A DNA stretch of 54,597 nt, filler included, from Jimgerdemannia flammicorona (Eukaryota), in the NCBI GenBank assembly GCA_003990765.1. It is 3 parts of 3 records of this genome, joined end to end, with 100 filler letters (N's around TTAATTAATTAA, not from the genome) between each part and the next. Parts side by side here need not be neighbours in the genome. Positions count along the whole stretch, not along the records: positions 18,235 to 36,368 come from RBNJ01002294.1; 2 more parts are not named here. The stretch is one strand, 5' to 3'. The position numbers were made by a program, and so were the translations under genes. Below are positions 4,757 through 53,028 of the stretch, one piece after another. The notes beneath the pieces are model-generated. The model saw nothing but the letters and a program-made list of their open reading frames with translations, made no database searches and was not told the origin of the DNA. Within the stretch, counting starts at the first letter, position 1; each line of letters starts with the position of its first letter.

Positions 4757-4798
<42 letters not shown>
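4757..4798 (+). repeat. Poly(A) homopolymer, 42 nt
   Basis: Directly visible. It sits at the border between AT-rich relic DNA and the CpG-rich island. No TSD found. Confidence 0.9.
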
Positions 4799-4804
<6 letters not shown>

Positions 4805-4829
4805 TAAAAAATGAATTATTATAAATTAT

Positions 4830-5594: not shown

Positions 5595-5626
<32 letters not shown>

Positions 5627-10521: not shown

Positions 10522-10538
10522 AAGTCTGGATCTGAGTC

Positions 10539-10540
<2 letters not shown>

Positions 10541-10596
<56 letters not shown>

Positions 10597-18102: not shown

Positions 18103-18105
<3 letters not shown>
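17146..18105 (-). mobile_element. Partial LTR of the dUTPase-Gypsy family, interrupted by a poly(T) tail (18106-18134) and a gap
   Basis: Aligns with 29772+, 39530+ and 46674+, including the 3' part of the LTR ORF. Confidence 0.85.
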
Positions 18106-18134
<29 letters not shown>

Positions 18135-18234
18135 NNNNNNNNNNNNNNNNNNNNNNNNNNNNNNNNNNNNNNNNNNNNTTAATTAATTAANNNNNNNNNN
18201 NNNNNNNNNNNNNNNNNNNNNNNNNNNNNNNNNN
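18135..18234. other. Assembly gap with TTAATTAATTAA linker
   Basis: N runs flank a 12-nt all-frame stop linker at 18179-18190. The same structure occurs at 36369-36468. Confidence 0.97.
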
Positions 18235-18814
18235 CAAAGGCCCCCACCTTCCATACAATACCAAATATGGAGAGCCCCGCTATCTTCCGGCGAATCCTAT
18301 CCAACAATGGTTCCAGAGAAAGGGCATAGAGAATCGGGGACAGAGGGTCCCCCTGAGGTACTCCCCTTCCCAAAGAAAAAGCCCTCCCTCGATGACCATT
18401 ACATGTCAGAGCTGCCCGACTACTTTCCAGCAGACTCAACATAGAGGCTCTAAATGTTGGGGGAACACCAATGCGGTCCAACACCTTTCCTAGCCACACC
18501 CGCCGTACACGGTCGTAGGCCTTCTCCTGGTCCAGAAAGACCAACCTTCCATCCAGCCCACAGGCCCGGGCTCCCTCAATGACCCCATGAACCCATGCAG
18601 TTCCGTCTCGGATTAGCCTACCCCCAACAAAGCCCCGCTGCTCTTCTCCCAGCACCTGTTGGGCAACCTTCTGCAGCCTCGCAACAATCACTTTTGTCAC
18701 CATCTTCCTGTCCATATCCAGTAGCATGATCGGCCACCAGTTCCTCCAGTCTTCCCGTCTTCCCTTGTCTTTGTACAGTAGGGCCACCAGCCCCAAATCC
18801 TGCTCTCCAACCCA
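18235..18814 (-). mobile_element. Young, 5'-truncated LINE RT segment inserted in an older LINE
   Basis: Open frame with FLDQEKAYDRV, GVPQGDPLSPILY and KVGAF. Retains CpGs. Abrupt junction to a different, downstream part of the older LINE at ~18814. Confidence 0.85.
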
Positions 18815-21800
18815 ACACTATTACTCTATCTGTTAGAGAGATATATCAGCTACCTTACTCTAGGAGAGTATTTCTCCACTCAAGTAGCTACTGCTTCTAC
18901 TATCTCTAAGACAATAAGGAATCATATACTGAGAAGTAGATTCTCAGGTACCAGACTATATTTCCTACTAGGACAACTGTTCCAATTACATCTCCTCCTA
19001 CTTTCCCTCTACCTAGTACCAGAGTCTTATACTTATGCTAGTTAAACTTAGTACCTGAGCATCTCTCATACCATTCTACTGCTTTCTTCAGTACTGCCAC
19101 ATCTTCCACTAAGCCCAGCCCTACCACTATGTTATCAGCAAAGGCCTCCACCTTCCAGTTCATTCTCAGAATATTTAACCCCCCTCTACTCTGTGTCTAA
19201 TCCAGTCTAATAAAGGCTCCAGAGAGAGGATATAGAGAATCAGTAACAATGAGTTTCCCTATAGCACTCCTCTACTTAGGGGAAAAAACTCTCTCCTATA
19301 CTTATTTACCAAAATAGCTATCTAACTCCCCTCTAATAGGTTGATCAAAGATTGCCTAAACTTTGGGAGAACTCTTATATACTTCAGTATCCCCTCAAGC
19401 CACACTTTCTGGACTCTGTCATAGGCCTTCTCTTGGTCCAGAAATACTAACCAACCATCAACCCCTGCAGTACAAGTATCTTCAGTAATACCATATATCT
19501 ATACCATCTTATCTCTTATCAAATGACCTCTAATGAAATCCCTCTGCTCTTCTTCTAATATCTGCTGAGCTACTCTCTGTAGTCTAGCCACTAATATCTT
19601 TGTAACCAACTTTCAATCCATATTCAGAAGTATGGTCAGTCTCCAGTTCTTTCAATTCTCTCTTCTCTTCTTATTCTTATATAACAGAGCTATAAGACTC
19701 AGATACTGTTCTCTAATTCAAGCTTCCAAGCTAATAACTTTATCACACATCTACATCATCTTCTCCAAAGCCAATTCCACACCTGCTATCCTCTTCCAGA
19801 AATCCCAAAGTAATCTATTCTCTTCAGGAGCCATCTTAAGACTCATTATTACTAATACTCTACAGATTTTCTCCCCTCAGATAAGTACTCTAAGTTCACC
19901 TAAGCCCTTTACTAAGTTTGGGTACCAATCCTCCTAATGTTGTCCAATGTTCTGTGCATCCTCCCTACTCTTCTCCTTACTTTATAATTGCCCTCACTGG
20001 GAACTCAACTGGTCCAAGATCCCTGAAGTACTAACTACCAACTCTCCTACCTCATCCAATACTCCTTCCCACTGCTGCCTCATCCTCTTTACCTGAAGTT
20101 ACCTCAATAAGGACTTTGTAGACCTCTCCCTCTCTTCTAAGCCCTACTACTGCAATTGTACTACAATACTCTTTATCTATAGTTCTTCCTTCTACTGTAG
20201 CAGCCCCCTCAACTCCTCTACCTCTAATCAGACCCACTGAACCCTCCAATCTCCCTCCTCTCTATTATTTAGCAGATTAGCTCACTTCACTAATAGCTTC
20301 TCTAACCTCTGAGAAGCCTACCTTAAACACCTCCTCCTCTGAGCACTCTTCCCCCTCTCTATCTTTCTCTAAAACTATTGAGCATCTGATTTTAAACACC
20401 TCTAATGATCCCCAATCACCAGCTCCTGTACACTCCAGCTAATAATTCTGGAGCTAATGTCAACTACTCATGCATTCTACAAGAAGGGCTCCTCCAGCAA
20501 AGAAATATTCAGGAACTAATATCTAGGCTCCTTCCCACTATCTCCAAACCTCTCACAATCCAGCAGACCTCAATAATCTGACCATGAGCACCAAATTATC
20601 TCTAAAGAGCCCCAGATATCTGCTCTCCAGTACTCAGCAGTTAAGATCCAGTTAATTCTTGAACTCAGCCCTACCACCCAGTGAGTATAGACCCTGCAGT
20701 CTCCCTAACCAAGATGCCCAGTATCCACTAGTAAGCTCTGACTTTCAATATCCTCTCAGTCTTCTATACTCTCACTCTTACCAGTCATCTCCCTCTCTCT
20801 ATCAGTTCTGTCCAACTATCCATCTCATATCATATTGAAGTCTCCCCCCAGATAATCAATTTCCTCTATTACCATAGTACTGGTCTCTTGAAGTCCTCTT
20901 ATCCATTCTACATACTCCTCCCTTTCTACTGGGCAATAATAAGACTCAACTGTCAGAGGGCTCCAGCTCAGTCTTCTCTATACTTCTCACATCACTCTGC
21001 TCTTCCAATGTCCAATATTCTCAATATCCCCCTTGTCCTTTCAAATTAATATGCCTATCTAACTCTGCTATATGACTATATCCCCCCATTCTCTCATCTA
21101 GTCCAGTATATCTAAGTTCTCATTGCATCTTATATCCTATAATAAGAATAGATCTACATTCAGCCCCTTCAACTAGCTGAAAATATTCCAACACCTCACT
21201 ACACCCCACAATCTATTGATATTCAAAGAGAAGATTCTAGTTGTACTGTTCATATTGAATAATGTTTTTTAAGGATCAGTTATCTGCTCTATAATTCTAT
21301 ACTCACTATATTACCAGTAACATCTAGGTTCCTCTCTGTCTCAAGCTCATCTGTCTCTCTCTGCTATACATCTAGTACTTCTAAGATCTTCTAATAGTCC
21401 TCACTATCCACAGCCTCTATATTAGACTAGTACTCCTTATATACTAGATCTCTATAGATAAGCTACACAGTCATTCATAATTACCAGAAGTACTGCCTAC
21501 TAATAGCTAATTTCTAAGCTTCTGCATTATCTCTTCTTCTTGCAGAATCTCACTCCAATGCTTTTCACTAATCATCTGAAAATCTACCTTACCTAACTCA
21601 TCTGCTATAACATTTGTCAGCATCTTCTACAACTACCTCTCCTCTCCTATGGCCTCATTGATACTTAGAGCCATCTTCTGCCCCCCAACCCTCTGATCTC
21701 TCTCAGCATTCATCCTTACTAACTCATCCCAATCCTCGTCCAGCATATTCTATAGCTCATCAGTCCCCTCTCCTCCTATGAGCACTCTATACTACACTTG

Positions 21801-23509
21801 AGTCTCCTCTACCATCACCTTATTCTCTACCACTATACTCTGCCTGGAGCCTTCACCCTCTCCCAGAGTCACTATAGGAGTCTCTCTCTTCTCCTCTGTC
21901 CAGACACTTACCCTCAATCTACCTCCTTTAGCAGTATTCTCCCCCTCTGCCCTCCCTTTCAGATTTACCAATAAGTCTTTCTAATGCTACCTCCCTTGTA
22001 TCCTCTCTTAGACCATCTGATCTAATCACACTCTTCTATCATTCACAATCTCTACCACTATCTTAGCCTTGAAATCCTTTCATGCTAGCTATCTCTTCTC
22101 TACTACTCCAGCTAGGTCTTCTAATGTCTCCAGCAAGTCCTTCTTCTCCTCTGGTATCTCCTTCACCCTCAAGACCTTATACTCTACTGGTCCCCACTTA
22201 AGTACTGCTAGCTAATCTCTTTCTTTCTCAGTATTCTCCTTGTCTGCCAGCCTTACCCTAATATCTACATCCTTAGTTCTGAACTCTGTATCTTCTTAGA
22301 CCCAAAATCTAATATTTTTTTTTATTTTTATTTTTATTTTTATAGTCACTTAGACTTCTGCCTTTATTAATACACCTGTCTATCTTCTAAATAATACACA
22401 GTACCCAACCCTATCCGATCCCCCTAGGGCCCCCCCCCTCCCCCACCCCCTACTTAATGAAAGACCACTTTGTCTAACATCATCTCCACCCACCCGCCAC
22501 TCTGTTCACAGATCCCTTCCACTAGATGGTGATGTTGCCCACCCTGGGGACCCCAACCCACTCACCACCCAGTCAGCAGATCCCCCATCAACCCCTTCCA
22601 CCTTAACAACTTCCCAAAATCTAATATCCACTACATCTCTATACTCCTTGATAATATCTATAATCAGCCTTCTGGCCATCTCCTTCTTTATCATAGATAC
22701 ATTTACCACTACTAGTTATATCACCTGAGAGTCCCAATATAGATACTAAGCCATAGAGATTGCCACCCCTCCCACTACTACTCTTTTCTCCAATGCTCTC
22801 AACATTAGATCCTTCTCCTCAAAGCCCACCTCTACTTCTTCCAGTTTCTTCAGGAACTTCACCAAAGCTGCTCCTTTTACCTTCTGAGCCAGAAGCCCCA
22901 GAACTATTTTTACTATAACTATCAAGCCTTGGAAGTATAGTATGACTGCAAATTCAGATACTAATTTCTTAAGTAATAGTACTACTATCAGATCTATTAT
23001 ACTATCAGCCTGGTCTCTAGTCCTCATGTCTTTCTCTTGCTCAGCCCCACCATTAGCTATCATATCTGAATTTTTTTTTCAGATTAGCAGTTCCCCCTCC
23101 ATTAGCAGTTTTGCTCTCCCCAACTTCTACTCTCTTAGCCCTACTGTTACTCCCACTATGGGCCTCTCTACTAGGCCCTACAGCCTCCTCCTTCTCTTTG
23201 TTCTTCTATAGCTAACTCTTCAATCCAGTTACCAGATACTCTGCCTTGATCTTGTCAGCAAAACTCATTCTCCAAGATCTCTGTCTGCTAGTCCTATCTC
23301 TTCATCCACCAGTGAGAGTACCCAACAGGCTCTCTCCCAAGTTATGACTCCTCTCTATATATTGCTAGTTGAATATACTGGGGCCACTCTACTCTGCACA
23401 CTCCTCAGATTACTCATCAGTCACAATACTATTATTATCTTTTCTTCAAAAATGATGTTGAAAGTATTGTTAAAAGTTTGTATAATCTGAATTTTACTGA
23501 AGAAAGGTG
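18815..23509 (-). mobile_element. Degenerate L1/Tx1-type LINE (5' end to late ORF2)
   Basis: Colinear with 10541-16364. ORF2 start MNSTTRIFSLN near 21250. 5' end CACCTTTCTT at 23509. Confidence 0.9.
22316..22612 (-). mobile_element. ~300-bp 5'-truncated LINE 3' end nested in LINE ORF1
   Basis: T-rich tail followed by TATAGTCACTTAGACTTCTGCCTTTATT, which matches the family 3' end. Flanked by the TSD CCCAAAATCTAATAT at 22301-22315 and 22613-22627. Confidence 0.88.
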
Positions 23510-25249
23510 CTGATTCTTTTTGAATATTATAGGATATTTATATTATTCCTTTATTTATATATATTAGTTATATTTCTCATCAATAAGTAAATTATATACA
23601 TTAATATATTTCTTATCTATAAATAGATATTTTAGATATTTTAGAATACTTTTTGACCTACAATCTGTAAAAATTCCTAGATAGTTATATTTGGATTATA
23701 TATAGTTCTAGTTTTTACATATATTATATATTACTTTTTTATTCTAATTTGTATTCCATTTTTTTAAGTATAGTTAGTATTCTTTTTTTTTAGATTATAT
23801 ATTTCATCAAGTGAGAGTATTGAGATAGCAATTTGATATATAGATATATAACTTTATACTATATACCATTTCATTAGTTTTACATTATTTATCAGTAATA
23901 CATATATAAAATATATGACTTATATAATTTAAATAAACTGCTTCTTCTATTTATCACAATATTCTGACAAATAAAGTTATATCAGTTGACTTTTTTATTT
24001 ATATAAATAAGTTCATTATAAAGATATATCTGACTGACTGGTTTAGATATATTAAATATGATAGATTCTCAGATTCCTCTGACTTAGTCTAATAAGCATA
24101 CTAAAATTGATAGAACTCTTTATATCTGAAAGTAGACCAGAGTGTAAATAAGTTTACAATTTCTTAATAGTAACTCATTGGTAGATATATCTTCTAAGTA
24201 TTACAATCCTTTTTAGATTAAATAGCCTTTGGCAGACATTTCTTTTAAGTATATTAGATAATTATATATAACTTTTACTTAAACTATTTGGACTGAGATT
24301 TATTTACTTTTATTACTAGGATATTTTATATAGATATAGTTACTATCTGGTTACTATATGGCTAATTATAAAATATATAGTAAGAATAATTTAAGAAAAT
24401 ATTCTTTCAGAAAATAGATATTTCTCTAGGATATAAGTATTTTTCCAGAGTATAGATATATCTTAGTATTATGAAATTTGTCCTAATTTAGTATATCAGA
24501 CTATTTATATAATAGTAGTATATAGAGTAACTATAGGGTAACTATACTGGATATTTTACATATTATCTAGTTATACTGTAATATTCACTTATCACTTTAG
24601 TTATTATTCTAATATCTATAGGTATCTTCTATATCTATATCTATACTATCATCTCTTTCTATATCTGAGCCACTCTATTTTAAGAGTTCTTCTTCTTCTA
24701 GAAATAAGATTTTGACTTGACTGATAATACTCTGGTAGATAGCTATATTTATTTTCTATATATTATTTAGAAAGAACTGGACTTAAGTAAGAGCTAAGAA
24801 GTTTCATTTATATATAGTATAAAGTCTATTAGCTACTAGAGTATTTCTGATATATATCTATTTTAAAGCTAGAAGATCTTGTAGTTGTCTTTCAATAATA
24901 TAGTAGGCCTGTAGTTAGTGAATCTTAAGTAACTGTTGTACTAAGGTGAGGTTCTTTTGATATATTTAGATCTATTATAGATAAGTTCTTTAAACTTTGT
25001 AAAACTGAGATAGAGAAACTAGTAAAGCTTGAAGAGAGCTGAGAATAAAGATCTGAAAGTATTAGTCAATTCTCTAGTTTATTATATTGAGAGGAAGTAT
25101 ATCTTAAGATAGTTGATATAGACTGAGATTTTTAAGATATATCTATCTATACTTCTTATATAGACACTAGTTTCTCTGAATTGTATATAAGATAAGATTC
25201 TTCCATTTAGGCTCCAATTTGGTAGCAAAGTTGATTTCAATCATACTTT

Positions 25250-26562
25250 CAGCTGCAGCAAACGCCCCGACGCGACAATTCGCAACAACAATGCACGAGT
25301 TCTGGTTCATATCCGTCCCTATTTCAGGCAACCTGACCAACACACATCTGAACTTGAAGAACAAGTTGCATGATGCCGCAGACGTTTCTCTCTTCAGCAT
25401 TCCAGTGTTCAAGATCGGAACCCTTGACGCGTTGGTTGTCATGTCCGACGATCTGGCAAAGTTTGACCTCGCCTTCGAGCAATCAACCCTGAAGATCTCA
25501 GACATTCTTCGAACCCTGCTGCGGAATACTCAGACCGACCTCAACAGCCAACTCACCGTCAACGAAAAAAGCGTGGACCAGTACATCAAAACCTTCGAAT
25601 GGAATACGACGAAATATCGCATCGACAAGTCGCTCCAAGAGATCACCGAACTTCTCAATCAGGAAGTCACGTCCATCGACACACTCATGAAGCACAAGAT
25701 GTCAAACTACACACAAGTGAAAGGGAGCCTGCAGAACTTGCAAAGAAAGGAGACAGGCAACCTGGCGGTCAAGAATTTGGTTGGAATCGTGAAGAAGGAG
25801 CATTTTGTTCTGGATTCGGAATACCTCGAAACCATCCTGGTGGCCGTCCCGAGGAACCTTTACAAAGACTGGCTCAACAAGTATGAGACTCTTACGCAGA
25901 TGGTCGTCCCGCGATCCTCGCAGAAGGTAGTGGAGGATGACGAATATGGAGTGTTCACGGTTACCCTATTCAAACGTATCGTGGAAGACTTCTCGCACAG
26001 ATGTAGAGAAGAGAAATTCGTTGTAAGGGACTTCAAGTACGACGAAGCCGCGCTTACAAACCAGAAGAAGGACCTGGAGGAGATCACTGCGACGGAGAAA
26101 GAGCAACAGACCACCCTTCTGCAGCTGGCCAAGACGAACTTTGGCGAGATCTTCGCGTCGTGGATACACCTCAAGGCTCTGAGGATCTTTGTGGAATCCG
26201 TGTTGCGTTATGGGTTGCCACCTGATTTTGCTGCCATGGCCGTCAAGCCAAAACACAAGATGGATCGCAAGGCTCGCGAGGTGCTCAATACGCAGTACGG
26301 CCACTTGGGCGGCATCCACGGCCAGCAGGTACAGTCCAAGTCCGGCGACGCGGACGAGGCGCTGGAGCAGCAGTACCAAAGTTTATTCGATAACGACTAC
26401 CACCCATACGTTTTCTTTGATGTTCGTTGGGATCCTGAGCGCAAGTGATTTATTACTGTGTAAGATATAAAAAACATGGATTGGTTTTAGCTGCTATGAC
26501 TTGAATAAGATCAATGCTGCAGTGCGGATTCCTTGAAAAAAATAAAATAAAATAAAATAAAA
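25250..26562 (+). other. Processed retrocopy unit (5'UTR + CDS + 3'UTR + A-tail)
   Basis: 13-bp direct repeat TCAATCATACTTT at 25237-25249 and 26563-26575. Tail A7(TAAAA)4 at 26536-26562. No introns. Confidence 0.9.
25291..26448 (+). CDS. VMA5: V-type proton ATPase V1 subunit C (385 aa), intronless
   Basis: Family motifs FWFISVP, FKIGTLDALV, DSEYLET, MVVPRSS and WIHLKALRIFVESVLRYGLP. The first ATG at 25291 has a good context (ACAACAATG). The ORF-track extension to 25219 runs into TE sequence. Confidence 0.96.
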   Translation: MHEFWFISVPISGNLTNTHLNLKNKLHDAADVSLFSIPVFKIGTLDALVVMSDDLAKFDLAFEQSTLKISDILRTLLRNTQTDLNSQLTVNEKSVDQYIKTFEWNTTKYRIDKSLQEITELLNQEVTSIDTLMKHKMSNYTQVKGSLQNLQRKETGNLAVKNLVGIVKKEHFVLDSEYLETILVAVPRNLYKDWLNKYETLTQMVVPRSSQKVVEDDEYGVFTVTLFKRIVEDFSHRCREEKFVVRDFKYDEAALTNQKKDLEEITATEKEQQTTLLQLAKTNFGEIFASWIHLKALRIFVESVLRYGLPPDFAAMAVKPKHKMDRKAREVLNTQYGHLGGIHGQQVQSKSGDADEALEQQYQSLFDNDYHPYVFFDVRWDPERK

Positions 26563-29500
26563 TCAATCATACTTTTCTAAACAAGAACTTAATCACTAAT
26601 TTTAATCTTCTAATCTTTCTATTTTTAGTCATAGTACTTCTTTTGTCTTTTCTGAATCTTAATTATCTGAGCTCAGGTTTAATTATATAATTATTTTACT
26701 TTTTTGAGTAGGTTTCCAAGATTCTCATAATCAGTAGTTCTGGTTTTCTTAGTAAATATCATTTTGAATAGCTTTTGTTTAGTAGATATAGCAGGGGTGT
26801 TCTAAATTTCCCATAGGATCTCAAATAGACAGAGATTCCAATTAATAGAATTTATTTAAATAAGTCCTTTCTTGATGATTCAGTTCATTTGTTCTATCAT
26901 TTTATTGATCTAAAGATAGTAGAACATAGTCTTCTTCAGGTGGATCTTGTGAATTTATATATAACTTATAATTATATTATTAATAAATTCTATATCTCAG
27001 TCAGAGATAAGTTCTTCTAGAGATCTATATCAGAATTTAAGACTATAGAGAAAACCAATAAATCAAGACATTAGTAATTTCTATTGAAAAAACTTTAAAC
27101 TATTTGATCAGATATCCTAAAAATACTATTTCTTCTTAGTATAACTAATAGAGAGTTCAATAATATCTACTTCTCATTTTTGGAAGATGTGGACTAATAG
27201 TATAATTAGTTATAGTAGTGTCTGATAGTTCTTCTTTCCTCAGTACTTCTGTCAGATATTATATCTCTTGAGTATATTTCTAACTTGTATTCAGAGTTTG
27301 GATTAGTATTAATATATTATTTATATATAACTTCTCTTCTATATTTGTCTATTCTTAATAGACTTTCTGATATTCTTGTCAGATGAGATCTTTTTGTACT
27401 TTAGTAGTCATAGAAACTTTTTTTAGAGTATAGTTTCTGAATATGTCTTTTTTCTAGTTTATTGGAGTTAGTAAGAAAGTATATTAATATTATTGTAAGC
27501 TTTCTCTACTTTGTAGATAATGGTGATTTTGTAATCTTATAGAATTACAATTTAGTGGATAAGAATTCCAGTAGGTTTCTTATAATTAAATAGTTATTTG
27601 AGAGTAGTATGGTCAGTTATTACAGTGAATTTTTTTTTAATAAGATAGTGCTTAGACAGAGTGACCACCCATATAACTATAAGATATTTTAATTTAGTAT
27701 TATTATAGTTGGCTTACTGCTTATTGGTAGCTTAGCTTATATAAACTATCACATAATACTACTGGTCAGATACTTCTTAGGCTAAGACTGCTCTGAGACC
27801 ATCTTTAAAATATTAATATACAAGATAACTGGCTTCTGCAGATTGGGTCACATAAGGACTGATACTGTAGTCATATAGTATTTAAGTTCTTTGAAGGCTA
27901 GTTTTTGTGGTTTCTTCTATTTATATAGTATTTTTTTTCTTAAGAAGAGTTCAAATTAGTATAGTAATCTGAGTAAAGTTCTTGATAAATCTTCTATAGT
28001 AAAATACTAGCATTAGAAATAATAGTATTTCTTTTAGACTTTTGGATACTGGCTAGTTATTAATCTTCTCAGTTTTCTTTAGATTTGCATAAGTTTATTT
28101 TTTAGAGACTATGAATCTAAGAAATTTGAGTTTCTGTTTTTCAAAGTAGTATTTATTAGCATTAAGTCTTAGATGGTTTTTTTGAGTAAGTTGGAAGAAC
28201 TCTTCCAGATATTATAAATATTCTTTGAAATTGGCTGAACAAATGTTGAAGTCATCTATATAGACAATTAGACAATAGTGAATAAGAGGAGCATAGACTG
28301 AGTTCATTATTCTCTAGAAGATTGGGAGAGTGTTGTAGAGTCTAAAGAGTATTTAGAGATATTTAAATAGTTTTCTAGAGTGAGGAAAGCTGTTTTTGAA
28401 TATTCTTAGAGTTTATGAGAATTTTATAGAATTCTGTAAAAAGGTCCAAACTGCTGAAGTATCTGATATTCTATAGTTGATCTAGAAGATTATTGATTTA
28501 GAATAAGAGATAAGTATTCTTTTCTATTACTAAGTTGAGTTTTCTATAATCTATATAGAGTCTCTATTCTCTTTTATTAAGTATAATAAGGATAGAGCTG
28601 ACCCAGAGGTTAGTGGAGAATTAGATGATTCTATTATCTAAGAGTTTCTGAATATATTCTTTCTCAAATGTCTTTAGATAGTAGGGTATTCTATAAGACT
28701 TCTGTTAGAGGATATTACATTTCTTATATTTATGCTATAGTAATATAATGAGTTATATGGCAGATTGTTATAGTCTGTGATAAAGTTATCCTGATATTTA
28801 TAAAGAAATTCTACTAGTTGCTACTGCTATTGAGATATTAGTTCTTCTCTAATATTGGTAAAAGATATTACATTCTCCTAAGTTATAAAGAGGTATTTTC
28901 TTTCTTCTGAGATCTTTTACTATTTTCTGATAGGTTCAATTCATAGAATTCTCTGTGTGTCTGATTAAGATAGAGTACTAGATAGCCTATAATAGTTTCT
29001 TTTAACAGAATGAGGTTGTCCTAACTTTGATTGGTTGCTTGGAAATATAAAGATTTCATTTTGTTAGAAAATATGTATCCTTCTATATCAAGGTTTTTGA
29101 GATCTTTATTTGGTTTAAAGAAGAAGTTTCTAGGGTCTAGTGGTATAAAGATTTTGAAGATAGTCTGCTCTTCTGGTTCTAGGATAAGGTTTTTGAGGAG
29201 TTTCACTGATTAATAGTATATTTATTGAAGTATATTCTTCTTAAGATAATTGACTTAAAGGAGATATATATCCTTTCTATCTAAGCTTTTAAGGCCTTTG
29301 GTCTATCTCATGCCTTGGATTAATTCAGAGACTTTCTGAAGTTAGAGTGTCTCAACCTTCATAAAAACAGCTTGAGAAATTTTCTCTCCTCCATAGATTC
29401 AGATTTATTTAATATTACTATTTTTCAAGATGACATTGATTTTACCTATATATCTAGAGTCTATTATTTCTCCTTTTATAGTAATTTCTTGTTTTGTAAA

Positions 29501-29771
29501 TTTAGATCTTGAGATTAGTTAAATATAAGTTCTTTGAGATAGCTATATAGTAAGTTCTATACTAAGAAGTACTATACTTCTAAAGTTGATAGTTTCATCT
29601 TAGTGACTACAAAAATCATAGTCTATATCTTCTCTATGGGCTTTCATTAAGGATCTGACTTCAGGGTACAGTAAGATATACTGTATAATATCTTTACTGA
29701 GTACAGATTATCCTTGAGCTAAGGCTTCTATAGTTATAAGTCTCTAAGTTCTAATATTGAGATATAGCTAT

Positions 29772-31240
29772 TGTCACATAGTGGTCACTGAGTCCTTCAA
29801 ATATACCAGATTCTCTTCAAGGTGTATCTCTTAGACTAACTCAAGTTTGTTATAAGCAAGTTCTTATTGGAGTTCCTTCCTAAGGTCTTATAGTCCTCAA
29901 ACTTCTTATTTTTAACTGTCTTGTTATCTCTTAGATTGCTTGCAAGGAAGTGTGTATATTATACTAAGAAGACTGTCTTTATTTCAGAGAAAATAAGAGA
30001 GGTATTTATACAAAATATAATTCAATAGTTGCTAAGATATAGAGCTAAATATAAATTCCAATAGCTAAAACTACTAAGTTCCAGAGTTGGTACTGATGGT
30101 TGTACAGGTTCAGGATACTGGTATAATTTGATGTCACATCAGAATACCAGTGCTGGCATTATTCAGTGTAACAAAGAACTTAGAGTAGAAAGTTCAGGAC
30201 CATGGGGGCTTCATCCTTATCATCAGAGGTCGGGATATCTTCAAAGGAGATGAGGTCCACAAATTCATCATATAGGTTGCATGTTTCACATATGTCAAAG
30301 TCACATGGGATGATGTCATTGCTGATGACATCATCATGTTCGGTGGTGGGGAAATCAGGGGCTCTCCAATCTATGAGGTTCTCTTCCACAAAATAAGGAA
30401 CAAATGTGGGGTCTTAGAGAGGTCTAACCTGGATACTTGGGCCTTGGAATACTGAGATCAATCCTTGCAGGAATTGGTCTGGGTTGTCCTGAAGGATGGG
30501 ATGCCAGAAGTCTTCTACTTTATCACTATTGAGGGTGATAGTGAACTGGGCTTCTGTAGCCACCCTGGCTTCTAGTGCATTGATATGGTGGGATGATAGG
30601 TCTCTGAAATCTGAGACTCTAACATACTCCAAGTTGGAGATTGACCATGGTGCATGCCTGAAGATCTGATGGATCTTCTTAGCCATTCTTGCCTTGCGTA
30701 TATCCATGGGAGTAATATCTTGTAGCTCTTGAGGGCTAGCCTGTGGGAACTCCCAGTAGAGGAGGTTTCCTATTTCATACTCCTGCTACATTTGGAGGTA
30801 TTCGGTAGCAATAGTGATCCTCATTTTCATTTCACAGCAGTAGAGAATGAAGTGATAAGGGTCTGCAGTACTCAGGTCGACACTAGGAGTCCTTCTTGAG
30901 CAGGTTCTCATAGCTCTTCTGATGTCTTGGAACATCCTTTCTTCAACTGAGGTACCTTGGTGGTTCCTTGACCTTGAGGTTTGGTGGACAGCAGGCATTT
31001 CATTTGTAGTAAGTCTTTGAGCTATTTTGGGATTGGTGGGTCTTGTTGGTTACTGCTACTGCAGTTCTTTGATCCTTCTTTTATATTTTTCAAGATACTC
31101 ATACTGTGGTCACAATGACTCACAGTTAGTCATCATTGCTCATCTTGTATGCCATATGATCTCCTTGTGCTCTGATCTGGTGGCTTGCAAGGAAAGACTG
31201 TCTCCTGTGCTGATGTCATCATTCTGGGATCACCATTACA
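29772..31240 (-). repeat. 3' LTR of copy A (~1.47 kb) with PPT at 31241-31250
   Basis: The minus strand reads AGGAGGAAGA|TGTAATG ... TGTGACA. TATAAATA at 30003-30010 and AATAAA at 29978-29983. The same block flanks both ends of copy B. Confidence 0.8.
30180..30998 (-). pseudogene. LTR (U3)-encoded ORF of unknown function, ~272 codons with two premature stops
   Basis: Track ORFs 30786-30998, 30414-30707 and 30180-30389 share one frame and are separated only by TAG/TAA (CAG/CAA>T). Upstream TATAAAAG at 31078-31085. Homologous relics occur in all four LTRs. Confidence 0.75.
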
Positions 31241-31553
31241 TCTTCCTCCTGAATAAGGATCTTCTCAAGTATCCTTATTTATTGGTCCAGTCCTGAAAAA
31301 TTTGCTGATCCCATAACCTCTAGCAAGGGGTCGAAAAGTGGTATTTATGGGCTGGCATCTTCTCTTTGTATTTTGGCATAATGGTGAAGGGTTGCTCCCT
31401 TCATATAGAGCAAGGACCTGATTCTGATCTTGACTAATCAGTTGACAGTTCAAACTCCACTGACTTTGAAAGTCTCACAGATGAGTAGTTGCCAGTGCTG
31501 TATCCCTTAGAGAATGGTCCAGACAGATAGCCTGCTGGTCATGGGACATGCTG

Positions 31554-34500
31554 TTACGATTCATGGACTAGAACCTCATGGGCAGTCATCACATTTTGCT
31601 TCTCTTGTATAGGTTTGTGGTACTTCTTGAGTCTGTTCCTGTATACCATAGTAGGCAGTATGGTCCCTAAGATTTTTCTAAGCCAGAAGGTAGTTCCCTT
31701 GATATCTTGCATGTAGAAGGGTCCTTCCCATTTGGGCTCCAGTTTTCGTGACCATGAGGCTTCTACCATATTTCAATACAGTAGAACCTTTTCTCTGATT
31801 CGGATGGGTTCTAGGGCCTTGTGATTCTTTTTCGCATTCTTCCCTGTCAGCATTTGTGACTTGATGATGTAATCTTCAGCCTTCTTCCTGATCTGGTGTA
31901 GTCTCCAGATTTCTGCATCAATCCATCTCCAAGTTAGATCTAGATTTGTGGCTGAGGTTCCATCAGAATCTTCTTCTCCAAAGAGCAGTTCTCTTGGGGT
32001 AAAGTGTATGCTCTGTGACCATATGTCTCATAGGACAGAGAGGGTGGTTGGGAGATAGTTATCCCAATTCTTATATGTCTCTGAGATTTTCGCTAGAATG
32101 TTCTTGAGGGTTTTGTTGGTTCTCTCTGTCTGTCCATTTCCTTGAGGGTGGTATGCAGTGGTCTTGATGTGCTGGATCTTGTATTTCTGATACATTATCT
32201 TGTGGAATCCATTGATGAATTCTATGCCACAGTCTGTTGTGATTTACTTTGGTGTCTTGTAGTGGCAGATGATTTCTTGGTGCAGGAAGTTGGCTATAGA
32301 GAGAGCATTGGCCTCTTGTAATGCTCCTGCCTCTATCCATTTGGTGAAGAGGTCTACAATAACTATAATATAGCGGTTTCCTGATAGTGTTACTGGTAGT
32401 GGCTCAATGATATCCATTGCAATGTAGTAGAAGAGGATAGACTCAATTCTTGATAACCCAGGTACCTGGTCTTGCTAATCTTGTTTCTGTTTTTGGCACT
32501 TGTCACACCCTTTGACAAATTGGCACAAGTCTTCTTCCATCTTAGACCACTACATAGTTCTTCTTGTCTTATCATATGTATTGATTCCTCCTAGGTGTCC
32601 TTGCTCATGTACTTCCTTCATTACTTAATAGTTCTTGTGTTTGAGTATTACTAGCTTTCCTCCTTTTCTGAGTATAGTGTTGTCTAATTCAAACTGTTTC
32701 CAAGTCCAGTTGATGATGGTGATTGTCCAGGGTTTGAGGTGGTTGGACATCTTCTGCTGCCCAAGATAGCTGATTAATCCATAGTATAGCTCCTTATTCA
32801 TGTTGAATAGTCCTGATGGGGGTATTTTGGGGTATCCTTGAGAGTATATCAGCATTGGTATTGGTCTTTTCTGAGTAGTGTTTGACAGTACAGTCATACT
32901 CTTGCAGTCTGTAGATCTATCTGGCATATATTCCTTTGGGGTTCAGAGTGTAGAATAGCCAGGCAAGAGTGGAATGGTCTGTTTGAATGGTGAAGTATTT
33001 CCCAGCTAGGTAGTAGTGGAACTTGTCTACTGTCCAAACTACTGCTAAGCATTCAAGCTTGCATGACTCATAGTTCTGTTCTGCTCTATGAGTATCTCAG
33101 CTTGCATAGGAGATGACATATTTATGTCCATCTTTCTTCTGAGCTAGGACTGCTCCAAGTCCTATAGTACTTGCATCTGTCTGCAGGATGAATTCTAGGT
33201 TCCAGTCTGGTCTTCTGAGGATAGGTGCTTGGGTCAACCTGATCTTGAGTTCATTGAAGGTTTCTTGGTACTCTTTGGTCTATTCGAATTTTGTTTCCTT
33301 CTTCAGTAGCTCATAGATAGATGCTGTGATGTTGGAGTATCCTTTGATGAATCTTCTGTAGTAGCTAGCCAGTCCAAGGAAGGCATGGACTTCTGTAGTT
33401 GTTCTGGGTCTTGGGTAGGCTACAACAGCCTCGATCTTTATAGAGTTTGTGTGGATTCTGGTCTGGTTGATGAGATATCCTAGGTAGGCGATTTCTTGAG
33501 CTGCAAACTTACATTTCTTGGACTTGATGTAGAGGCCATACTCCTTGAGCTTCTTGAGGGCTAGCTGTATGTGATTGATATGTTCCCGTACAGTGTTGCT
33601 GAAGATGATCATATCATCAACATAGACAAAGAGCCATTTTCCAATCTCATTACTGAAGACTCTGTTCATTATTCGCTAGAAACTTGCTGGGGCATTGTAC
33701 ATTCCAAATGGCATTTGCAGATAGATATAGGTGGCATCAGGTATGATGAAGGCTGATTTCTCACTGGCATCTTGAGTGAGACCAATTTGATGGAAGCCTG
33801 AGAACAGATCTAAGGTGGTGTAGTATTTGGCTTTGCTTCTAAGGGTGGTAAGGATTTCTTGAATATTCAGCAAGGGCTGCCTATCCTTCTTGGTGATGGT
33901 ATTGAGCTTCCTGTAGTCAATGCAGAGTCTTGGTGCAAACTCTCCAGGTTTGCTTCCTTTCTTTGGGGTGAGGACAATGGGTGAGGCCCAGGGGCTGATA
34001 GCTTGCTTGATGATTCCAGCTTCTTCTATTTCCTTGAGTTCTGCTTGCAGCCATTCTCTGTAGGCAGGTGGTATGGGTCTGGCTTTCTGGTAGATAGGCT
34101 TGGTATCACCAGTGTCAACTTCATGATAGTACTTGGGTTCTTGATTATGGATATCTCTAAAGTCTGTAGCAAGTACTCCTTTGTTCTGGTGCAGGATCTT
34201 GAGAAGTTGTTCCTCCAGGGGAAAGTTTTCTCCAATGATATATGTGTGCTTGTTCTGGTCCTTGTCTTTCTTATACTCAAGTTCAGTAATCTTGGTGGCA
34301 GTATAGGCTCTTCTTCCAGTAGATCCAAAGCCTTGTTCTCCTCTCTTGGTCTTGATGAGTTTGATGGCTTCTATGATCTTGGGCTTCTTGATTTTGTGGA
34401 TCAGCATCTGGCCAATCCTGTCATGCTTCTTGACTTTGAATGGGGTGGTGGGGTTGTGATTCCTGACTATGAGGAAGATCTCACCAGTGTAATCAGGGTC

Positions 34501-36360
34501 AATTACTCCTCCTTCAACTGAGATTTCGCTTTTGGTCAGACTGCTCCTGGTCTTGATAATTCCAGTGTAGTTCTCTGGTAGCTTGACTCCAATTCCAGTG
34601 CCAAGTAGGGTGGTGGTCTGTGGTTTAAGGATAGCATCTTGAATGCTGGCAAGGTCCATTCCTATGACTCCTTCAGTCTTGTATTCTGGGATCTTGGCTT
34701 CAGGGTGAAACTTCTTGACCTTGAGGGTGATGTCTGATTCTTATTCCTCCTCATCATTACTATCAGCTTGAAGCTCTGGGGGCTGGTCATCTTCTTTGGC
34801 TTTTCTTTTTGCTTTGGCGGCTTCTTGCTTGTGTTTCTATTGATGGATTTTCCTAACTTCACTGATACAGGACCAGCAGTCATTCAGGTGTTCAGAGCAG
34901 TACATTCTAGTACCATGGAGGCATCTTCCTTGAGAGGTATAGCCATTGATGATCTTGTTGTACCACTGCTCATCTGTGAGCTTGGGTGTCTTGTTCTTGT
35001 TCTTGTTCTTGTTCACTGAGTACATGAAGACCTCTGTGTCCTCTTCATCTTCTTTCTCCATATCTGGTAGGACTCCTTTGTGAACATTGATAGAGACTCA
35101 TATCTTTCTTCCTCTATAGTTGATCTGCATCTTCTGAGCATTGAGGTCAATGATGGCCTTGGCCTTGTAAAGCCATTGGTTGCCAATGAGGATGTCATAG
35201 TTAGTGGCGCTTGTAACAATCATGTCTACTGGGATGGTAGCTCCTCCTATCTTGATGGGGACTTCTCAGATTTTGCCAAGGGGGGTAGCTCATGTACCAT
35301 CTGCTGTAACATAGACCATCTTGGTGGACTCTTCAATGTCCCAGCCTAGGCAGTTGATTGCCTTCTTGCTTATGAGGCATCCTTCAGCACCGGTATCAAT
35401 AATGGCATCAAAGATATAGTCCTCAATCTGGCAGGGGGTATAGGCTGATGTCTTGCACTGATCTTCGGATTCTTCACCTGAGTTCTCAGATTCTTCCTGT
35501 ACATTGTGAGCTTCTACAATCTTGTACTCTTGATTCTTGGCAGTAGTTGCAAGTCCTACTCTCAACTGCTGTCTGAAGGCAGGGACTTCGGCTAGTTGTC
35601 CAAAAGTAGCATTGACCTTCTGTTCCTTGAGGTCCTTGTAGATATCATACTGGTGGATCTTGGTCTTGCACAGCTTCTGTTCCTTCTTGCTTTCACTTTC
35701 TCCTGAGACTGGAGTAGTGCCTTCAATGATTTGGCAGGCAGCTTTATCTAACTCCATGTCTTAATCAATCTTCTCTGGTTGAGTCTTGCTTTGAATAGTG
35801 ACAGCTGGGGTCTTCTTTGGTCTTCCAACTGGCTTGCTGTTGCTCTTCTTATCATAGGGCTTGGACTGGGTTCTGGTACCTTCAGTAGCAGGGTAGAATT
35901 CAAGCTCCTCATAGTATTCTTCATCATCAGTATCACCAATCTCCTCGATGACTACTGCATTGGTTTGTTCTCTGGTTCTGCCAGCATTGCTTGGTTGGGC
36001 TTTGCATCTTGTTTCAGTCATACAACTCTTTGCATAGTGGCCTTCTTCTCCACATCTGAAGCATGTGATATTGTGTTCTTCTGTAGTGACTGCAAATCTC
36101 TGCACTGGTCTCCTATTGGTGCTTTGGACTTCTCTAACAACATCACTAAGGTGTGCAGTCATCTTAGTGAACTGCTTGGCAAGTTCTTCCACTGGGTCAG
36201 CTTTGGCTGTCTTGGGAGTAGGTGGGGTTGGTTGTCTGTTTACAACTGTGGTGGGTATGATACTAGTTGGCTTTGATGGCTCCATCTTGATACCAGTTAT
36301 TTTCTCCATTGAGTGTTCGGCAGGGTGTCTGGCAGTCCAATATCTCTGTGCAAAGACCAC
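31554..36360 (-). pseudogene. gag-pol polyprotein of copy A with scattered nonsense codons
   Basis: Track ORFs starting at 36360, 35757, 35061, 34659 and 33669 are in one frame. The TAA at 35761 is CAA in copy B. Confidence 0.88.
34315..34731 (-). other. Trimeric dUTPase domain between protease and RT
   Basis: All five motifs are recognisable: GMDL, RSSL, GGVIDPDYTGEI, DRIGQM, RGEQGFGSTG. A decayed homologue lies at ~44045-44460. Confidence 0.93.
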
Positions 36361-36368
36361 TTTCTGAT

Positions 36369-36468
36369 NNNNNNNNNNNNNNNNNNNNNNNNNNNNNNNN
36401 NNNNNNNNNNNNTTAATTAATTAANNNNNNNNNNNNNNNNNNNNNNNNNNNNNNNNNNNNNNNNNNNN
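36369..36468. other. Assembly gap with TTAATTAATTAA linker
   Basis: N runs with the linker at 36413-36424. Confidence 0.97.
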
Positions 36469-48556: not shown

Positions 48557-48638
48557 CATCTTTCTCCGCTATATTTCATATTACACACATTTTACAAATA
48601 CACTTTCGATTTGTTTATTAGAGAAAGATATTAAGAAG

Positions 48639-50673: not shown

Positions 50674-50704
50674 AGGAGAGGTTTAATCTTTAACAATATT
50701 CCTC

Positions 50705-53028
50705 ATAAACAGTACAACTAATATTTTCTCTCTCAATGTGAATGGCCTTAGCAGATCTGGGCAGTGTAAGAACATTTTTACATGGCTAAAGGAATTGGAG
50801 GCTGATCTCTTCTTACTGCAGGATGTATGGTGTGAGGATGAGGATGATCAGATAGAGTGGACTAGGGAATGGGGTGGGGCTACTGCTTGGTTTGGAAAGA
50901 TGGCAATTCTGGTAAAGAAGGGTAGAGGAGATTTGGAGGGAATCCAGAGCTGGGGTGACCGCTTGGTCTGGGGTGAATGGCACTGGCCAGAGTGGAAAGC
51001 AGTGAGGGTGGGCTCTTGTTACTATCTGGTGGCTAGAGGAGAGAGGATCGCATGGATTAAGGAGCTACTGGAGGAGGGCATTCTCTTGAAAGAAGGGGTC
51101 GATGTTATTGGTGGTGATTTTAACATGGTTCGAGATGTGCAGCTGGATAGGACTGATGGCGGGAGGAACACAGGCAGGAGGAGTGGCAGTCTAGATGTGT
51201 GGGAGGAGGTAGAAAACCTTAGCTCCTTAGGGGATATGGGCCAAACATGGTGGGGCGACACCAGGATCTATACGCACTGGGTGAATGGCTTAGGGACAAG
51301 GATTGACTGGATTCTGACAGCTGAATGTTGGGGTGCTGGTATCTGGAAGTCTTTGGAGATAGTGTGGTGCCTGTGGTCTGATCACTGGGGACTGTTTGGA
51401 CAGGGGCAGTTTGGGGGAAGTGGAGATGGACCCGGACATTGGTGTCTTAACTCCTCTCTGCTGGCTGAGAAGGGGTTGTAGGATTCATGGGTGGAGGATG
51501 TCCAGGCAATGATTCCACTTTGGAGGTGGGAGGGTTTGCCTGTGAGTATCCATTGGATGAGATTGAAGGAGACTGTGAGGGTCTATTGGGATAGAGCTGG
51601 TAGAGAGGTAGGGAGATAGAGGAGGAGGCATATACAGTGTACTTTCAATAGGCTGAGGAGAGTGCAGTTGAAGTGAGTGGATTTGCTTATGTCTGATGAG
51701 GTGGAGGATTAGAGGTTAGAAAGGGCAAAATTGGAAGTTGTCGAACTGCAATAGGTGTTGAGAGAGGAGGAGGAGACTTATATACAAGGAATGGCAGCCA
51801 AGCTAAGATGGCAGGGACTTGAGGAGGGGGAGTGGCCTACTAGGTACTTGTCTAGACTCCTCAAAGCCAGGCAGGTGAGATATTGGTGGAATGGGATCTT
51901 GGATGCTGAGGGAGAGTTGGTGCATGGTATGCAGTGGATCCTGGGAGTATTGAAGGAGAATTGGTGGAGTCTGTGGAGTGAGAAAGAAGGAGGTGCTGAT
52001 GCTGAGGTGATTGGTAACACACTGGAGGAGTGGGAGCCACTGCAGGTAGAGGGGCTGGGTGACTTGAGCTTGCTAGTTCAAGAGGAGAAGATCTGAGGAG
52101 TCCTGGCAGCAACCAAACTTGAGACAGCGCCGGGAGAGGATGGGTTGCCATGGGACTTCTGGAAGAAGATGGTAACAATCCCTGGGATGCTGGGAGAGAT
52201 GGCAGCTCTTTGTGACTATGTTCTTCTAAGTGGTATGTGGGTTGGTGAGCAGGACTTAGGGCTGGTGGCCCTATTGTTCAAAGACAAGGGCCGGCGTGAG
52301 GATTAGAAGAACTGGAGGCTGATCATGCTCCTGGATATAGATTGGAAGTTAGTGACTAAGGTGATTGTTGCAAGGCTACAGAAGATTGCTCAACAGGTGC
52401 TGGGTGAGGAGCAGCAGGGCTTTGTAGGAGGTAGACTTATCAGAGATGGAACTGCCTGAGTGCATGGCATCATTGAAGGAGCCCGGGCCTGTAGACTGGA
52501 TGGTAGACTGGTCTTTTTGGACCAGGAGAAGGCCTATGACTATGTTCGGCAGGTTTGGCTGGGCAAGGTACTGGACAGGATTGGCATTCCGCCACAGTTT
52601 CAGGCCTCTATGTTGAGTTTGTTGGAAGGGAGTAGAGTGGCACTGATGTGTAATGATCACAGGGGTTTGGCATTCCCCTTGGGGAGAGGAGTCCCTCAAG
52701 GAGACCCGCTGTCCCCTATTCTTTATGCACTCTCCTTGGAACCTTTGATGGATAGGATCTGTAAGAAGGTGGCTGGGCTCTCTGTGTATGGCATGGAGTG
52801 GAAGGTGGGGGCCTTTGTGGATGATATGGTAGTTGGACTTGGATCAGTAGTGGATGTAGAGACTCTTCAGGAAACAGTGGAGTGGTATGAGGTGCACTCT
52901 GGAGCGAGGCTCAACTGACATAAGTATGAGACGATAGTGCTGGGGAATGGACTAGTGGGAGGGGATGTCATTGGAACAATTGTCCCCACAGGAGAGGTGG
53001 TGAGGTATCTCAGTATCTTTCTCTCTAT
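50705..53028 (+). pseudogene. LINE ORF2 (APE endonuclease + reverse transcriptase)
   Basis: Start ATA-AAC-AGT-ACA-ACT, which is ATG in the copy at ~21250. Motifs as above. Nonsense codons are TAG/TGA. Confidence 0.88.

What the first reader, a model, noticed from the sequence alone, without database searches (positions are those of the whole stretch)
25237..26575. Intact LINE-made retrogene of V-ATPase subunit C inside a Gypsy integrase
Seen: all hallmarks of target-primed retroposition, namely no introns, a 41-nt 5'UTR, a 3'UTR, an A-tail, a perfect 13-bp TSD, and a host integrase frame that rejoins when the insert is removed. The 385-aa ORF is uninterrupted and CpG-rich although the flanks are wrecked and the tail has already decayed to (AAAAT)n. 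Established: L1-type ORF2 mobilises cellular mRNAs in trans; well-documented processed retrocopies are uncommon in fungi. Inference: either a recent copy or a functional retrogene of a housekeeping gene that now depends on TE-derived upstream DNA for its promoter.
Basis: partly seen in the sequence, partly recalled or inferred. Interest (0 to 1): 0.8.

Follow-up and report, generated by a model that had tools for sequence, protein, structure and literature searches.

The report
Young V-ATPase C retrocopy in Gypsy
A fungal housekeeping gene's messenger RNA was copied back into DNA by a jumping-gene enzyme and inserted into a dead retrotransposon; the copy is intact and very young but shows no sign of being the working gene.

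Summary
A perfect 13-bp direct repeat (25237-25249 and 26563-26575) brackets a 1313-bp unit. The unit has a 41-nt leader, an uninterrupted 385-codon V-ATPase subunit C frame, an 87-nt trailer and a 27-nt A-rich tail. It lies antisense in the C-terminal part of a decayed Ty3/Gypsy integrase. The two halves of that integrase abut exactly at the repeat-encoded residues when compared with an intact relative. The insert keeps 81 CpGs; about 5 kb of flanks have none. The closest proteins are from Jimgerdemannia flammicorona (Endogonales). APE-type LINE remnants lie in the same window.

The best reading is a very young LINE-made processed retrocopy. Evidence that it is a working retrogene is lacking. 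At the only diagnostic site (25527-25528) contigs of all three runs covering it read CG, not the window's TA. One same-species contig runs on into unlike sequence past the poly(A) site. An annotated protein fragment extends 5' of the insert's start. So another, probably expressed, source locus exists.

Not shown: the source gene's introns, since no source DNA could be fetched, and independent read support for the junctions.

It is a new member of a known kind. Interest is moderate, because examples with these hallmarks are rarely documented in fungi.

The parts
25237..25249 (+). 5' target-site duplication (13 bp)
   Evidence: Identical to 26563-26575. These are the only two occurrences in the window.
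25250..25290 (+). Copied 5' leader (41 nt)
   Evidence: Read. The X1 contig reaches 25268. The annotated fragment P0139 is identical in translation over most of this leader and differs at or just before the insert's first bases.
25291..26448 (+). Uninterrupted V-ATPase subunit C coding frame, 385 codons plus TGA
   Evidence: ORF list. Pfam PF03223 covers 1-371 of 371, E 6e-141. It is 99-100% identical to J. flammicorona fragments and 62% to the next species.
25527..25528 (+). Copy-specific TA where the other sequences read CG (silent change in codon 79, plus Thr80 instead of Ala)
   Evidence: X1, X2 and X3 read C and G at full depth. P0001 and P0139 have Ala80.
26449..26535 (+). Copied 3' trailer with AATAAG at 26504-26509
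   Evidence: Read. X1 and X2 contigs match up to 26530. P0122's gene model reads through this trailer.
26536..26562 (+). A-rich tail: A7 followed by four TAAAA
   Evidence: It is the only (AAAAT)n tract in the window.
26563..26575 (+). 3' target-site duplication (13 bp)
26565..27599 (-). Host Ty3/Gypsy integrase, part before the insertion (decayed, many stops)
   Evidence: phmmer gave 15 hits at E<=1e-3, best E 2e-14. Nine of the 10 hits scanned carry rve. It aligns to the rve core of the window's second Gypsy, E 6e-4.
25173..25247 (-). Host integrase, continuation after the insertion
   Evidence: Matches P0124 residues 189-211, E 2e-7. Matches the second Gypsy's residues 377-393, E 3e-4.
27531..29494 (-). 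Host Gypsy pol upstream parts: dUTPase, reverse transcriptase, RNase H
   Evidence: Pfam on stop-masked minus frames: dUTPase E 3e-10, RVT_1 E 9e-7, RT_RNaseH E 8e-15.
50687..52915 (+). Broken APE-type LINE in the same window (endonuclease and reverse transcriptase pieces). It shows the kind of machinery present, not the actual source.
   Evidence: Exo_endo_phos E 1e-11 and RVT_1 E 7e-13.
18182..18817 (-). LINE reverse transcriptase piece with a T29 tract at 18106-18134
   Evidence: RVT_1 E 2e-18. The best solved relative is human LINE-1 ORF2p, E 1e-17. The tract is listed.

Best explanation
This is a very young processed retrocopy of the V-ATPase subunit C (VMA5-type) mRNA, in a genome whose closest proteins are those of Jimgerdemannia flammicorona.

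Inferred mechanism: an APE-type LINE endonuclease nicked the target. The A tail of a spliced, polyadenylated cellular mRNA was primed there and reverse-transcribed. A staggered second cut 13 bp away produced the direct repeat.

Shown: the insert landed antisense in the C-terminal part of a Ty3/Gypsy integrase whose CpGs are all gone.

Inferred: the source gene sits elsewhere and is the copy seen in the RNA-like contigs. The window's copy is intact only because it is young. It has already taken one CG-to-TA change of the kind that erased the flanks' CpGs, and nothing shows that it is transcribed.
For: - Structure: 13-bp perfect repeat, leader, full frame, trailer and A-rich tail directly abutting the 3' repeat.
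- Full-length V-ATPase_C match.
- Interrupted host frame: the flanks match P0124 at residues 20-191 and 189-211, overlapping only at the repeat-encoded residues. The window's own second Gypsy is uninterrupted at the same place.
- LINE machinery of the right kind is in the window: APE plus RT, with long A or T tails.
- Youth: 2 differences in 1263 bases from the X1 contig; 81 CpGs against 0 in the flanks.
- A separate source locus. The X1 contig of 3995 nt covers 25268-26530 without a gap, and its remaining 2.7 kb is unlike the window. The flanks are uncovered in all four runs. P0139 carries 16 residues upstream of Met1, and their translation departs from the window at the insert's first bases. 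One annotated genome holds overlapping fragments (P0001 residues 51-384, P0139 1-124, P0123 273-385), so it has at least two loci.
- The CG state at 25527-25528 is shared by X1, X2 and the about 91%-identical X3 contig. The window's TA is therefore the derived state.
Against: - No DNA of an intron-bearing parent was obtained. The metagenome scan gave only 39% and 29% relatives and no whole genome is held. 'Intron loss' therefore rests on structure alone.
- X1 and X2 are labelled RNA only as a guess. If they are DNA, the second locus is also intronless.
- The break of the X1 and X2 pieces at 26530 falls at a repeat stretch that the tool skips (26531-26572), so the exact point of divergence is unknown.
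- The target site (…GATT then TCAA…) is not the TT/AAAA preference recalled for human L1.
- No LINE copy in the window is intact.
- No run laid covers either junction, so the assembly's junctions lack independent support.
- The tail is a periodic (TAAAA)n, whereas the LINE-associated tracts in the window are pure runs of 29-53.
Confidence: 0.72

Rival explanations
1. It is a functional retrogene. The copy is transcribed from promoter activity in the decayed Gypsy DNA upstream, and it contributes to or replaces the cell's subunit C.
For: - The 385-codon frame is intact with a full-length Pfam match.
- CpG observed/expected is 1.04, as if the copy were unmethylated.
- No full-length intron-bearing model of this gene appears among the annotated J. 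flammicorona proteins; only fragments do.
- The window's own model is deposited as a protein (P0121).
Against: - At the only diagnostic site, 0 of 3 covering runs read the window's TA and all 3 read CG.
- No contig covers the upstream flank.
- The one amino-acid change (Ala80 to Thr) is private to this copy.
- Two substitutions cannot show purifying selection.
- Another locus with a different 3' continuation and a different 5' extension exists.
Confidence: 0.15
2. It is an assembly artefact. cDNA or RNA-derived reads, or a collapsed repeat, were stitched into a Gypsy contig, so the insertion does not exist in the genome.
For: - No run laid covers either junction.
- By a review passage, the genomes of this group were built from field-collected fruiting bodies and more than 77% of the genome can be repeats and transposons (PMC10386755, passages seen).
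Against: - A chimera would not create a perfect 13-bp duplication of the host integrase sequence that restores the host frame when one copy is removed.
- The copy carries a private CG-to-TA change absent from the RNA-like contigs.
Confidence: 0.05
3. It is a retrocopy made by another route: template switching inside an LTR-retrotransposon particle (Ty1-like), or co-amplification as a passenger of the Gypsy element.
For: - The insert lies inside an LTR element.
- Ty1-type template switching onto cellular transcripts is described in PMC5470649 (passage seen).
- Several copies of the gene exist in the species.
Against: - The A-rich tail abuts a 13-bp repeat, and no LTR sequence borders the insert.
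- The insert is antisense and breaks the integrase.
- The insert keeps its CpGs while the carrier has none, so the two do not share a history.
Confidence: 0.04

Closest known systems
Mammalian L1-mediated processed pseudogenes and retrocopies
   Same: An mRNA-shaped unit with leader, uninterrupted coding frame and trailer. The A tail abuts a direct repeat in the 7-20 bp range (range recalled). It is inserted away from its own promoter. An APE plus RT LINE is present, whose RT is closest among solved structures to human L1 ORF2p.
   Different: The host is an early-diverging fungus. The target site is not the recalled TT/AAAA. The LINE clade is not determined; relatives carry APE, RT and sometimes RNase H. 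Loss of the parent's introns is not demonstrated.
LINE (MGL)-made chimeric retropseudogenes of Magnaporthe grisea (PMC2104539, abstract seen)
   Same: A fungal LINE acting in trans on cellular transcripts. That abstract takes a 14-bp flanking direct repeat as proof of LINE machinery.
   Different: Those are chimeras of a non-coding RNA, a SINE and a LINE made by template switching. This one is a single, complete protein-coding mRNA copy with an intact frame.
Retroposed ribosomal-protein gene duplicates of fission yeasts (PMC6993855, passages seen)
   Same: Retroposition of highly expressed, dosage-sensitive housekeeping genes in fungi.
   Different: In those passages retroposition is inferred from an enrichment of intron-less copies and from the lack of microsynteny and of tandem paralogs. 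Here the tail and the target-site duplication are still visible, but function is not shown.

Membership tests
LINE/TPRT-made processed retrocopy | Target-site duplication of about 7-20 bp directly flanking the unit | tested here: met
   Perfect 13 bp, with only two occurrences in the window. Chance is about 3e-5 by composition and 7 of 4284 empirically.
LINE/TPRT-made processed retrocopy | A-rich tail at the end of the copied 3' trailer, abutting the 3' repeat | tested here: met
   A7 plus four TAAAA at 26536-26562, with AATAAG 27 nt upstream. The tail is not a pure A run.
LINE/TPRT-made processed retrocopy | Lacks the introns of its source gene | tested here: inconclusive
   The copy is uninterrupted. 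No source DNA was obtained. The only hints are partial gene models that stop after codon 124 (P0139) and start at codon 273 (P0123) on 4.1-kb and 3.2-kb contigs.
LINE/TPRT-made processed retrocopy | Sits at a locus different from the source gene and without its promoter | tested here: met
   Both flanks are one interrupted Gypsy integrase. A same-species contig continues into unlike sequence, and P0139 has a different 5' extension. One caveat: the exact break point falls in a stretch the tool skipped.
LINE/TPRT-made processed retrocopy | Autonomous APE-type LINE in the genome | tested here: met
   Exo_endo_phos plus RVT_1 pieces, the L1 ORF2p match and long A or T tails. All copies in the window are broken, so current activity is not shown.
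Functional retrogene | Copy-specific transcription | tested here: not met
   Zero of 3 runs covering 25527-25528 read the window's variant. Contigs can drop rare variants, and the library type of X1 and X2 is a guess.
Functional retrogene | Purifying selection on the copy since insertion | not testable with these tools
   Only two adjacent substitutions, one silent and one replacing.
V-ATPase subunit C (Pfam PF03223) | Full-length match to the family model above the curated cut-off | tested here: met
   470.5 bits against a cut-off of 23.1, covering model positions 1-371 of 371.
Ty3/Gypsy integrase (host of the insertion) | Integrase core (rve) downstream of RT and RNase H in one frame | tested here: met
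   No direct Pfam hit on the decayed frames. The feature is met through intermediates: 15 phmmer hits, with 9 of the 10 scanned carrying rve and 7 also carrying Integrase_H2C2. RT and RNase H are found directly.

The most novel reading that the evidence does not exclude
LINE elements of Endogonales are active now and mobilise cellular mRNAs in trans. Subunit C has been copied more than once, giving at least two loci per genome including partial ones. This copy escapes the CpG-erasing process that has emptied every surrounding transposon, either because it is transcribed and unmethylated or because it arrived after that process ceased. It would then be a dated marker for genome defence in an early-diverging fungus, and possibly a newborn working retrogene.
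Probability: 0.15. Interest if true: 0.6.

Novelty: new member of a known kind. Interest (0 to 1): 0.4.

Why it matters
- Rarity in fungi. [quoted passage not shown] My searches listed no paper describing one in Mucoromycota. The listings were capped at 12 to 15 papers, and one search matched 1,298.
- Evidence of recent activity. A copy with an intact target-site duplication, a tail and 99.8% identity to the expressed sequence suggests that an APE-type LINE acted on a cellular mRNA recently in this lineage. By a review passage, its genomes are about 240 Mb and more than 77% of the genome can be repeats and transposons (PMC10386755).
- A natural contrast for genome defence. The insert holds 81 CpGs and lies in DNA with none. 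This allows a test of whether cytosine loss in these transposons is ongoing and what it targets.
- Practical point. The copy is deposited as a protein-coding gene model (P0121), which may misrepresent where the working gene lies.

Tried and rejected
- Whole-genome search for the parent: no genome is held for this window.
- Metagenome scan with the protein: 2 loci only, at 39% and 29% identity, so not this lineage.
- Direct Pfam scan of the decayed flanks for integrase: nothing at E up to 10. It was replaced by phmmer through intermediates.
- Nucleotide search of the flanks against the rest of the window for an empty site: only short repeat pieces. Protein-level tblastn found the RT and RNase H region but not the integrase at E<=0.01.
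- LTR pair for the host Gypsy: none found.
- Target-site duplications for the other A/T-tailed elements in the window: no convincing exact repeats.
- A six-frame Pfam scan of the whole window was too large to print. I scanned the long open frames instead.
- CpG island at 4.8-6.6 kb: I read it by eye as a ubiquitin- or SUMO-like gene with introns, but neither Pfam nor the PDB sequence search supports that. I dropped it as evidence that genes here carry introns.
- Parts of the laid stretch without cover in X1-X4 (24800-25243 and most of 26576-27000): absence of cover in contigs proves nothing by itself.
- X4 and the root runs X5-X17 hold small shares. Only X3 and X4 were laid. I draw no habitat claim beyond noting that identical fragments occur in X3 and X4.
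- X3's loose end at 25563: it does not begin with GT and sits in a 91%-identical contig, so I do not read it as an intron.
- Earlier findings of this scan: nothing on this genome, sequence or topic.
Full report
**What is there.**
- An identical 13-mer stands at 25237-25249 and 26563-26575. A script finds it nowhere else in the window on either strand.
- Between the two copies lie a 41-nt leader, an ATG-to-TGA frame of 385 codons (25291-26448) and an 87-nt trailer with AATAAG at 26504-26509.
- The unit ends in a 27-nt tail made of A7 and four TAAAA. The tail runs directly into the 3' repeat.
- Pfam places the protein in V-ATPase_C over the whole model (positions 1-371 of 371, E 6e-141).
- From flank composition, the chance that this 13-mer recurs in a given 300-bp target is about 3e-5. 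An empirical count in the window's AT-rich parts gave 7 recurrences among 4284 random 13-mers. That is still rare, and it takes no account of the repeat's exact position at both ends of an mRNA-shaped unit.

**The host element.**
- Stop-masked minus-strand frames downstream of the insert give dUTPase, RVT_1 and RT_RNaseH. This is an LTR-retrotransposon pol running towards the insert.
- Pfam finds no integrase on the decayed frames, even at E 10, so I went through intermediates. phmmer of the frame 26565-27599 against 1.84 billion representatives gave 15 hits at E<=1e-3. The best was P0124 (E 2e-14), with query residues 179-345 on P0124 20-191.
- Of the 10 hits I scanned, 9 carry rve and 7 also carry Integrase_H2C2. 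One is a full pol with RT, RNase H and integrase.
- The frame on the other side of the insert, starting inside the 5' repeat, matches P0124 residues 189-211 (E 2e-7). The two flanks thus overlap on P0124 by just the residues that the repeat encodes.
- The window's second, better-kept Gypsy (30000-36420, minus strand; zf-CCHC, protease, dUTPase plus RT, H2C2 plus rve) shows the same colinearity. Its core aligns at residues 214-280 (E 6e-4), and residues 377-393 align to the first 17 residues after the insert (E 3e-4).
- The insertion therefore lies about 100 residues past the integrase core, antisense to the element. Removing the insert and one repeat restores the host frame.

**Whose gene.**
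- The closest proteins are annotated J. flammicorona fragments at 99-100% identity. The next species is at 62%.
- The cluster holds four members (aligned).
  - P0121 (335 aa) is identical to the window from Met51. It is listed without a name, as the tool does for the window's own products. Its contig length of 18134 equals the N-delimited piece 18235-36368.
  - P0001 (334 aa) has Ala80 and Asn197.
  - P0122 (76 aa) is the C-terminus read on into the trailer.
  - P0123 (137 aa) runs from residue 273 to the end, after 24 unrelated residues.
- A search among shorter proteins added P0139 (140 aa, partial, contig 4124). It has 16 residues, then residues 1-124 with Ala80.
- The translation of those 16 residues agrees with the window's leader except at its start. 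There the window has the repeat and Gypsy sequence instead. P0139's locus therefore extends further 5' than the insert.
- P0001, P0139 and P0123 cover overlapping residues. P0139 and P0123 bear neighbouring accession numbers; P0001's is of the next prefix, and I take all three to be from one annotated genome. If so, that genome has at least two loci.

**Sequencing runs.** Seventeen runs hold part of the stretch. Two from one organism hold 0.79 and 0.70 of the sampled words, which is about the insert's share of the query. I laid X1-X4 on 24800-27000 at 90% likeness.
- X1: one 3995-nt contig covers 25268-26530 with no gap or joint and two differences (25527 T>C, 25528 A>G). Its other 2.7 kb does not lie on the window.
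- X2: short contigs cover 25341-26530 with the same two differences. Two bubbles hold a second variant with 8 differences, which one search shows to be 6 silent and 2 replacing.
- X3 (root metatranscriptome): two identical pieces, plus two pieces about 91% identical that also read C and G at 25527-25528.
- X4: two identical 151-nt pieces.
- No run covers 24800-25243. Beyond 26575 only a 62-nt repeat piece lies on the window.

Caveats on the runs:
- The RNA label of X1 and X2 is the tool's guess. I favour RNA for three reasons. Their whole contig sets are 34 and 47 million letters, against a genome of about 240 Mb (PMC10386755, passage seen). The transposon flanks are absent. The contigs do not branch inside the coding frame.
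- The pieces end at 26530 next to a stretch the tool skips (26531-26572), so the exact divergence point is unknown.

**Reading.**
- The structure is that of target-primed reverse transcription of a polyadenylated mRNA.
- APE-type LINE remnants lie in the window. They are Exo_endo_phos at 50687-51478, RVT_1 at 52460-52915 and RVT_1 at 18182-18817. Pure A or T tracts of 29-53 nt are also present.
- The RT piece is closest among solved structures to human L1 ORF2p (E 1e-17, against about 1e-11 for R2). Its database relatives are 1000-1800-aa proteins with APE, RT and sometimes RNase H. This shows the kind of machinery, not the clade. No copy here is intact.
- The window's TA at 25527-25528 stands where same-species contigs and a related species read CG. 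It is therefore derived, and it is the double transition expected if both strands of a CpG were deaminated.
- The flanks have no CpG at all: 0 in 2000 bp and 0 in 2938 bp, against 81 in the insert at observed/expected 1.04. Across the window, CpGs are confined to a few islands.
- The simplest account is that the copy arrived after the host element had decayed and is too young to have changed. One of 82 CpG sites is gone.
- A periodic A-rich tail is compatible with this. A-rich microsatellites are known to arise from such tails (PMC3812793, passages seen).

**Function.** Nothing here shows that the copy works. The only diagnostic site reads the other variant in all three runs that cover it. The replacing change is private to this copy. 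Two substitutions are too few for a selection test. The intact frame is expected from youth alone.

**What remains open.** The parent's DNA and its introns were not seen. The partial models that stop after codon 124 and start at codon 273 are only hints. The junctions lack independent reads. The LINE family responsible is unknown, and the target site does not match the preference recalled for human L1.

**Known context.**
- Fungal LINE-made retropseudogenes with a 14-bp repeat are described in Magnaporthe, but as chimeras of non-coding RNA, SINE and LINE (PMC2104539, abstract seen).
- Retroposition of ribosomal-protein genes is inferred in fission yeasts from an enrichment of intron-less copies and from the lack of microsynteny and tandem paralogs (PMC6993855, passages seen).
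- My searches listed no report of such a copy in Mucoromycota. The listings were capped, so this is weak evidence of absence.

**Verdict.** The thing is a new member of a known kind, a young processed retrocopy. It is not shown to be a working gene.

Noticed in passing
window 1-54597; for example 23250-25249, 26563-29500, 10500-16000, 40000-46000: CpG is almost wholly erased from the transposon-derived parts: 0 to 2 CpGs per 2-6 kb. The window's 355 CpGs sit in a few islands. There are two grades of decay. Segments at about 43% GC show an excess of TpG and CpA (30-36 kb). Segments at 25-27% GC show an excess of TpA and depletion of CpA and TpG, which resembles RIP, a process not known to me in this phylum (recalled).
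   Followed up: partly
window 1-3500, 10500-16000, 18000-23000, 48500-52500: GC skew is very strong, +/-0.4 to 0.55. Where the strand of the LINE frames is known, the sign follows it: plus at 48.7-54 kb, minus at 18.2-18.8 kb. The LINE sense strand is therefore G-rich and C-poor. I do not know whether this is native composition or strand-biased cytosine loss.
   Followed up: no
window 4757-4798, 5598-5626, 10541-10593, 18106-18134: Long pure homopolymers are present: A42, T29, T53 and T29. At least two adjoin LINE-like segments as tails. They are purer than the retrocopy's tail, although their elements have lost their CpGs. No exact target-site duplications were found for them.
   Followed up: partly
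window 4800-6640: A CpG-rich island holds minus-strand open pieces in three frames, separated by GT...AG-like boundaries, with a T29 tract inside it. Neither Pfam nor the PDB sequence search identifies it.
   Followed up: partly
window 9900-10520: The same roughly 40-residue peptide is read on both strands (ORFs 9907-10098 plus and 10299-10514 minus). This indicates an inverted repeat in a small CpG-bearing island next to the T53 tract. It may be a foldback or MITE-like element.
   Followed up: no
window 30000-36420, minus strand: A second, much better preserved Ty3/Gypsy element has a gag zinc knuckle, protease, dUTPase fused before RT, and an H2C2 plus rve integrase. The host element of the retrocopy also has the dUTPase.
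   Followed up: partly
window 25948-26085 and 26330-26439 (run X2): A second variant of the gene occurs at about half the depth of the window-like one. It has 8 differences, 6 silent and 2 replacing. It could be an allele, a paralogue or a second individual in the sample, and it appears to have diverged under constraint.
   Followed up: partly
window 25666-25873, 26110-26271 (X3); 25965-26115, 26172-26322 (X4): Pieces identical to the coding sequence occur in a root metatranscriptome and in a soil metagenome run. The gene, or its source copy, is therefore seen in environmental samples.
   Followed up: no
window 18135-18234 and 36369-36468: There are two pairs of 44-N runs, each pair separated by 12 bases. 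The piece between the pairs is 18134 bases, which equals the contig length recorded for the window's own gene model P0121.
   Followed up: yes
window 25441 (Met51): The deposited gene models for this copy (P0121) and for P0001 start at Met51, although the frame is open and homologous to other fungi from Met1. The annotation is probably truncated.
   Followed up: no
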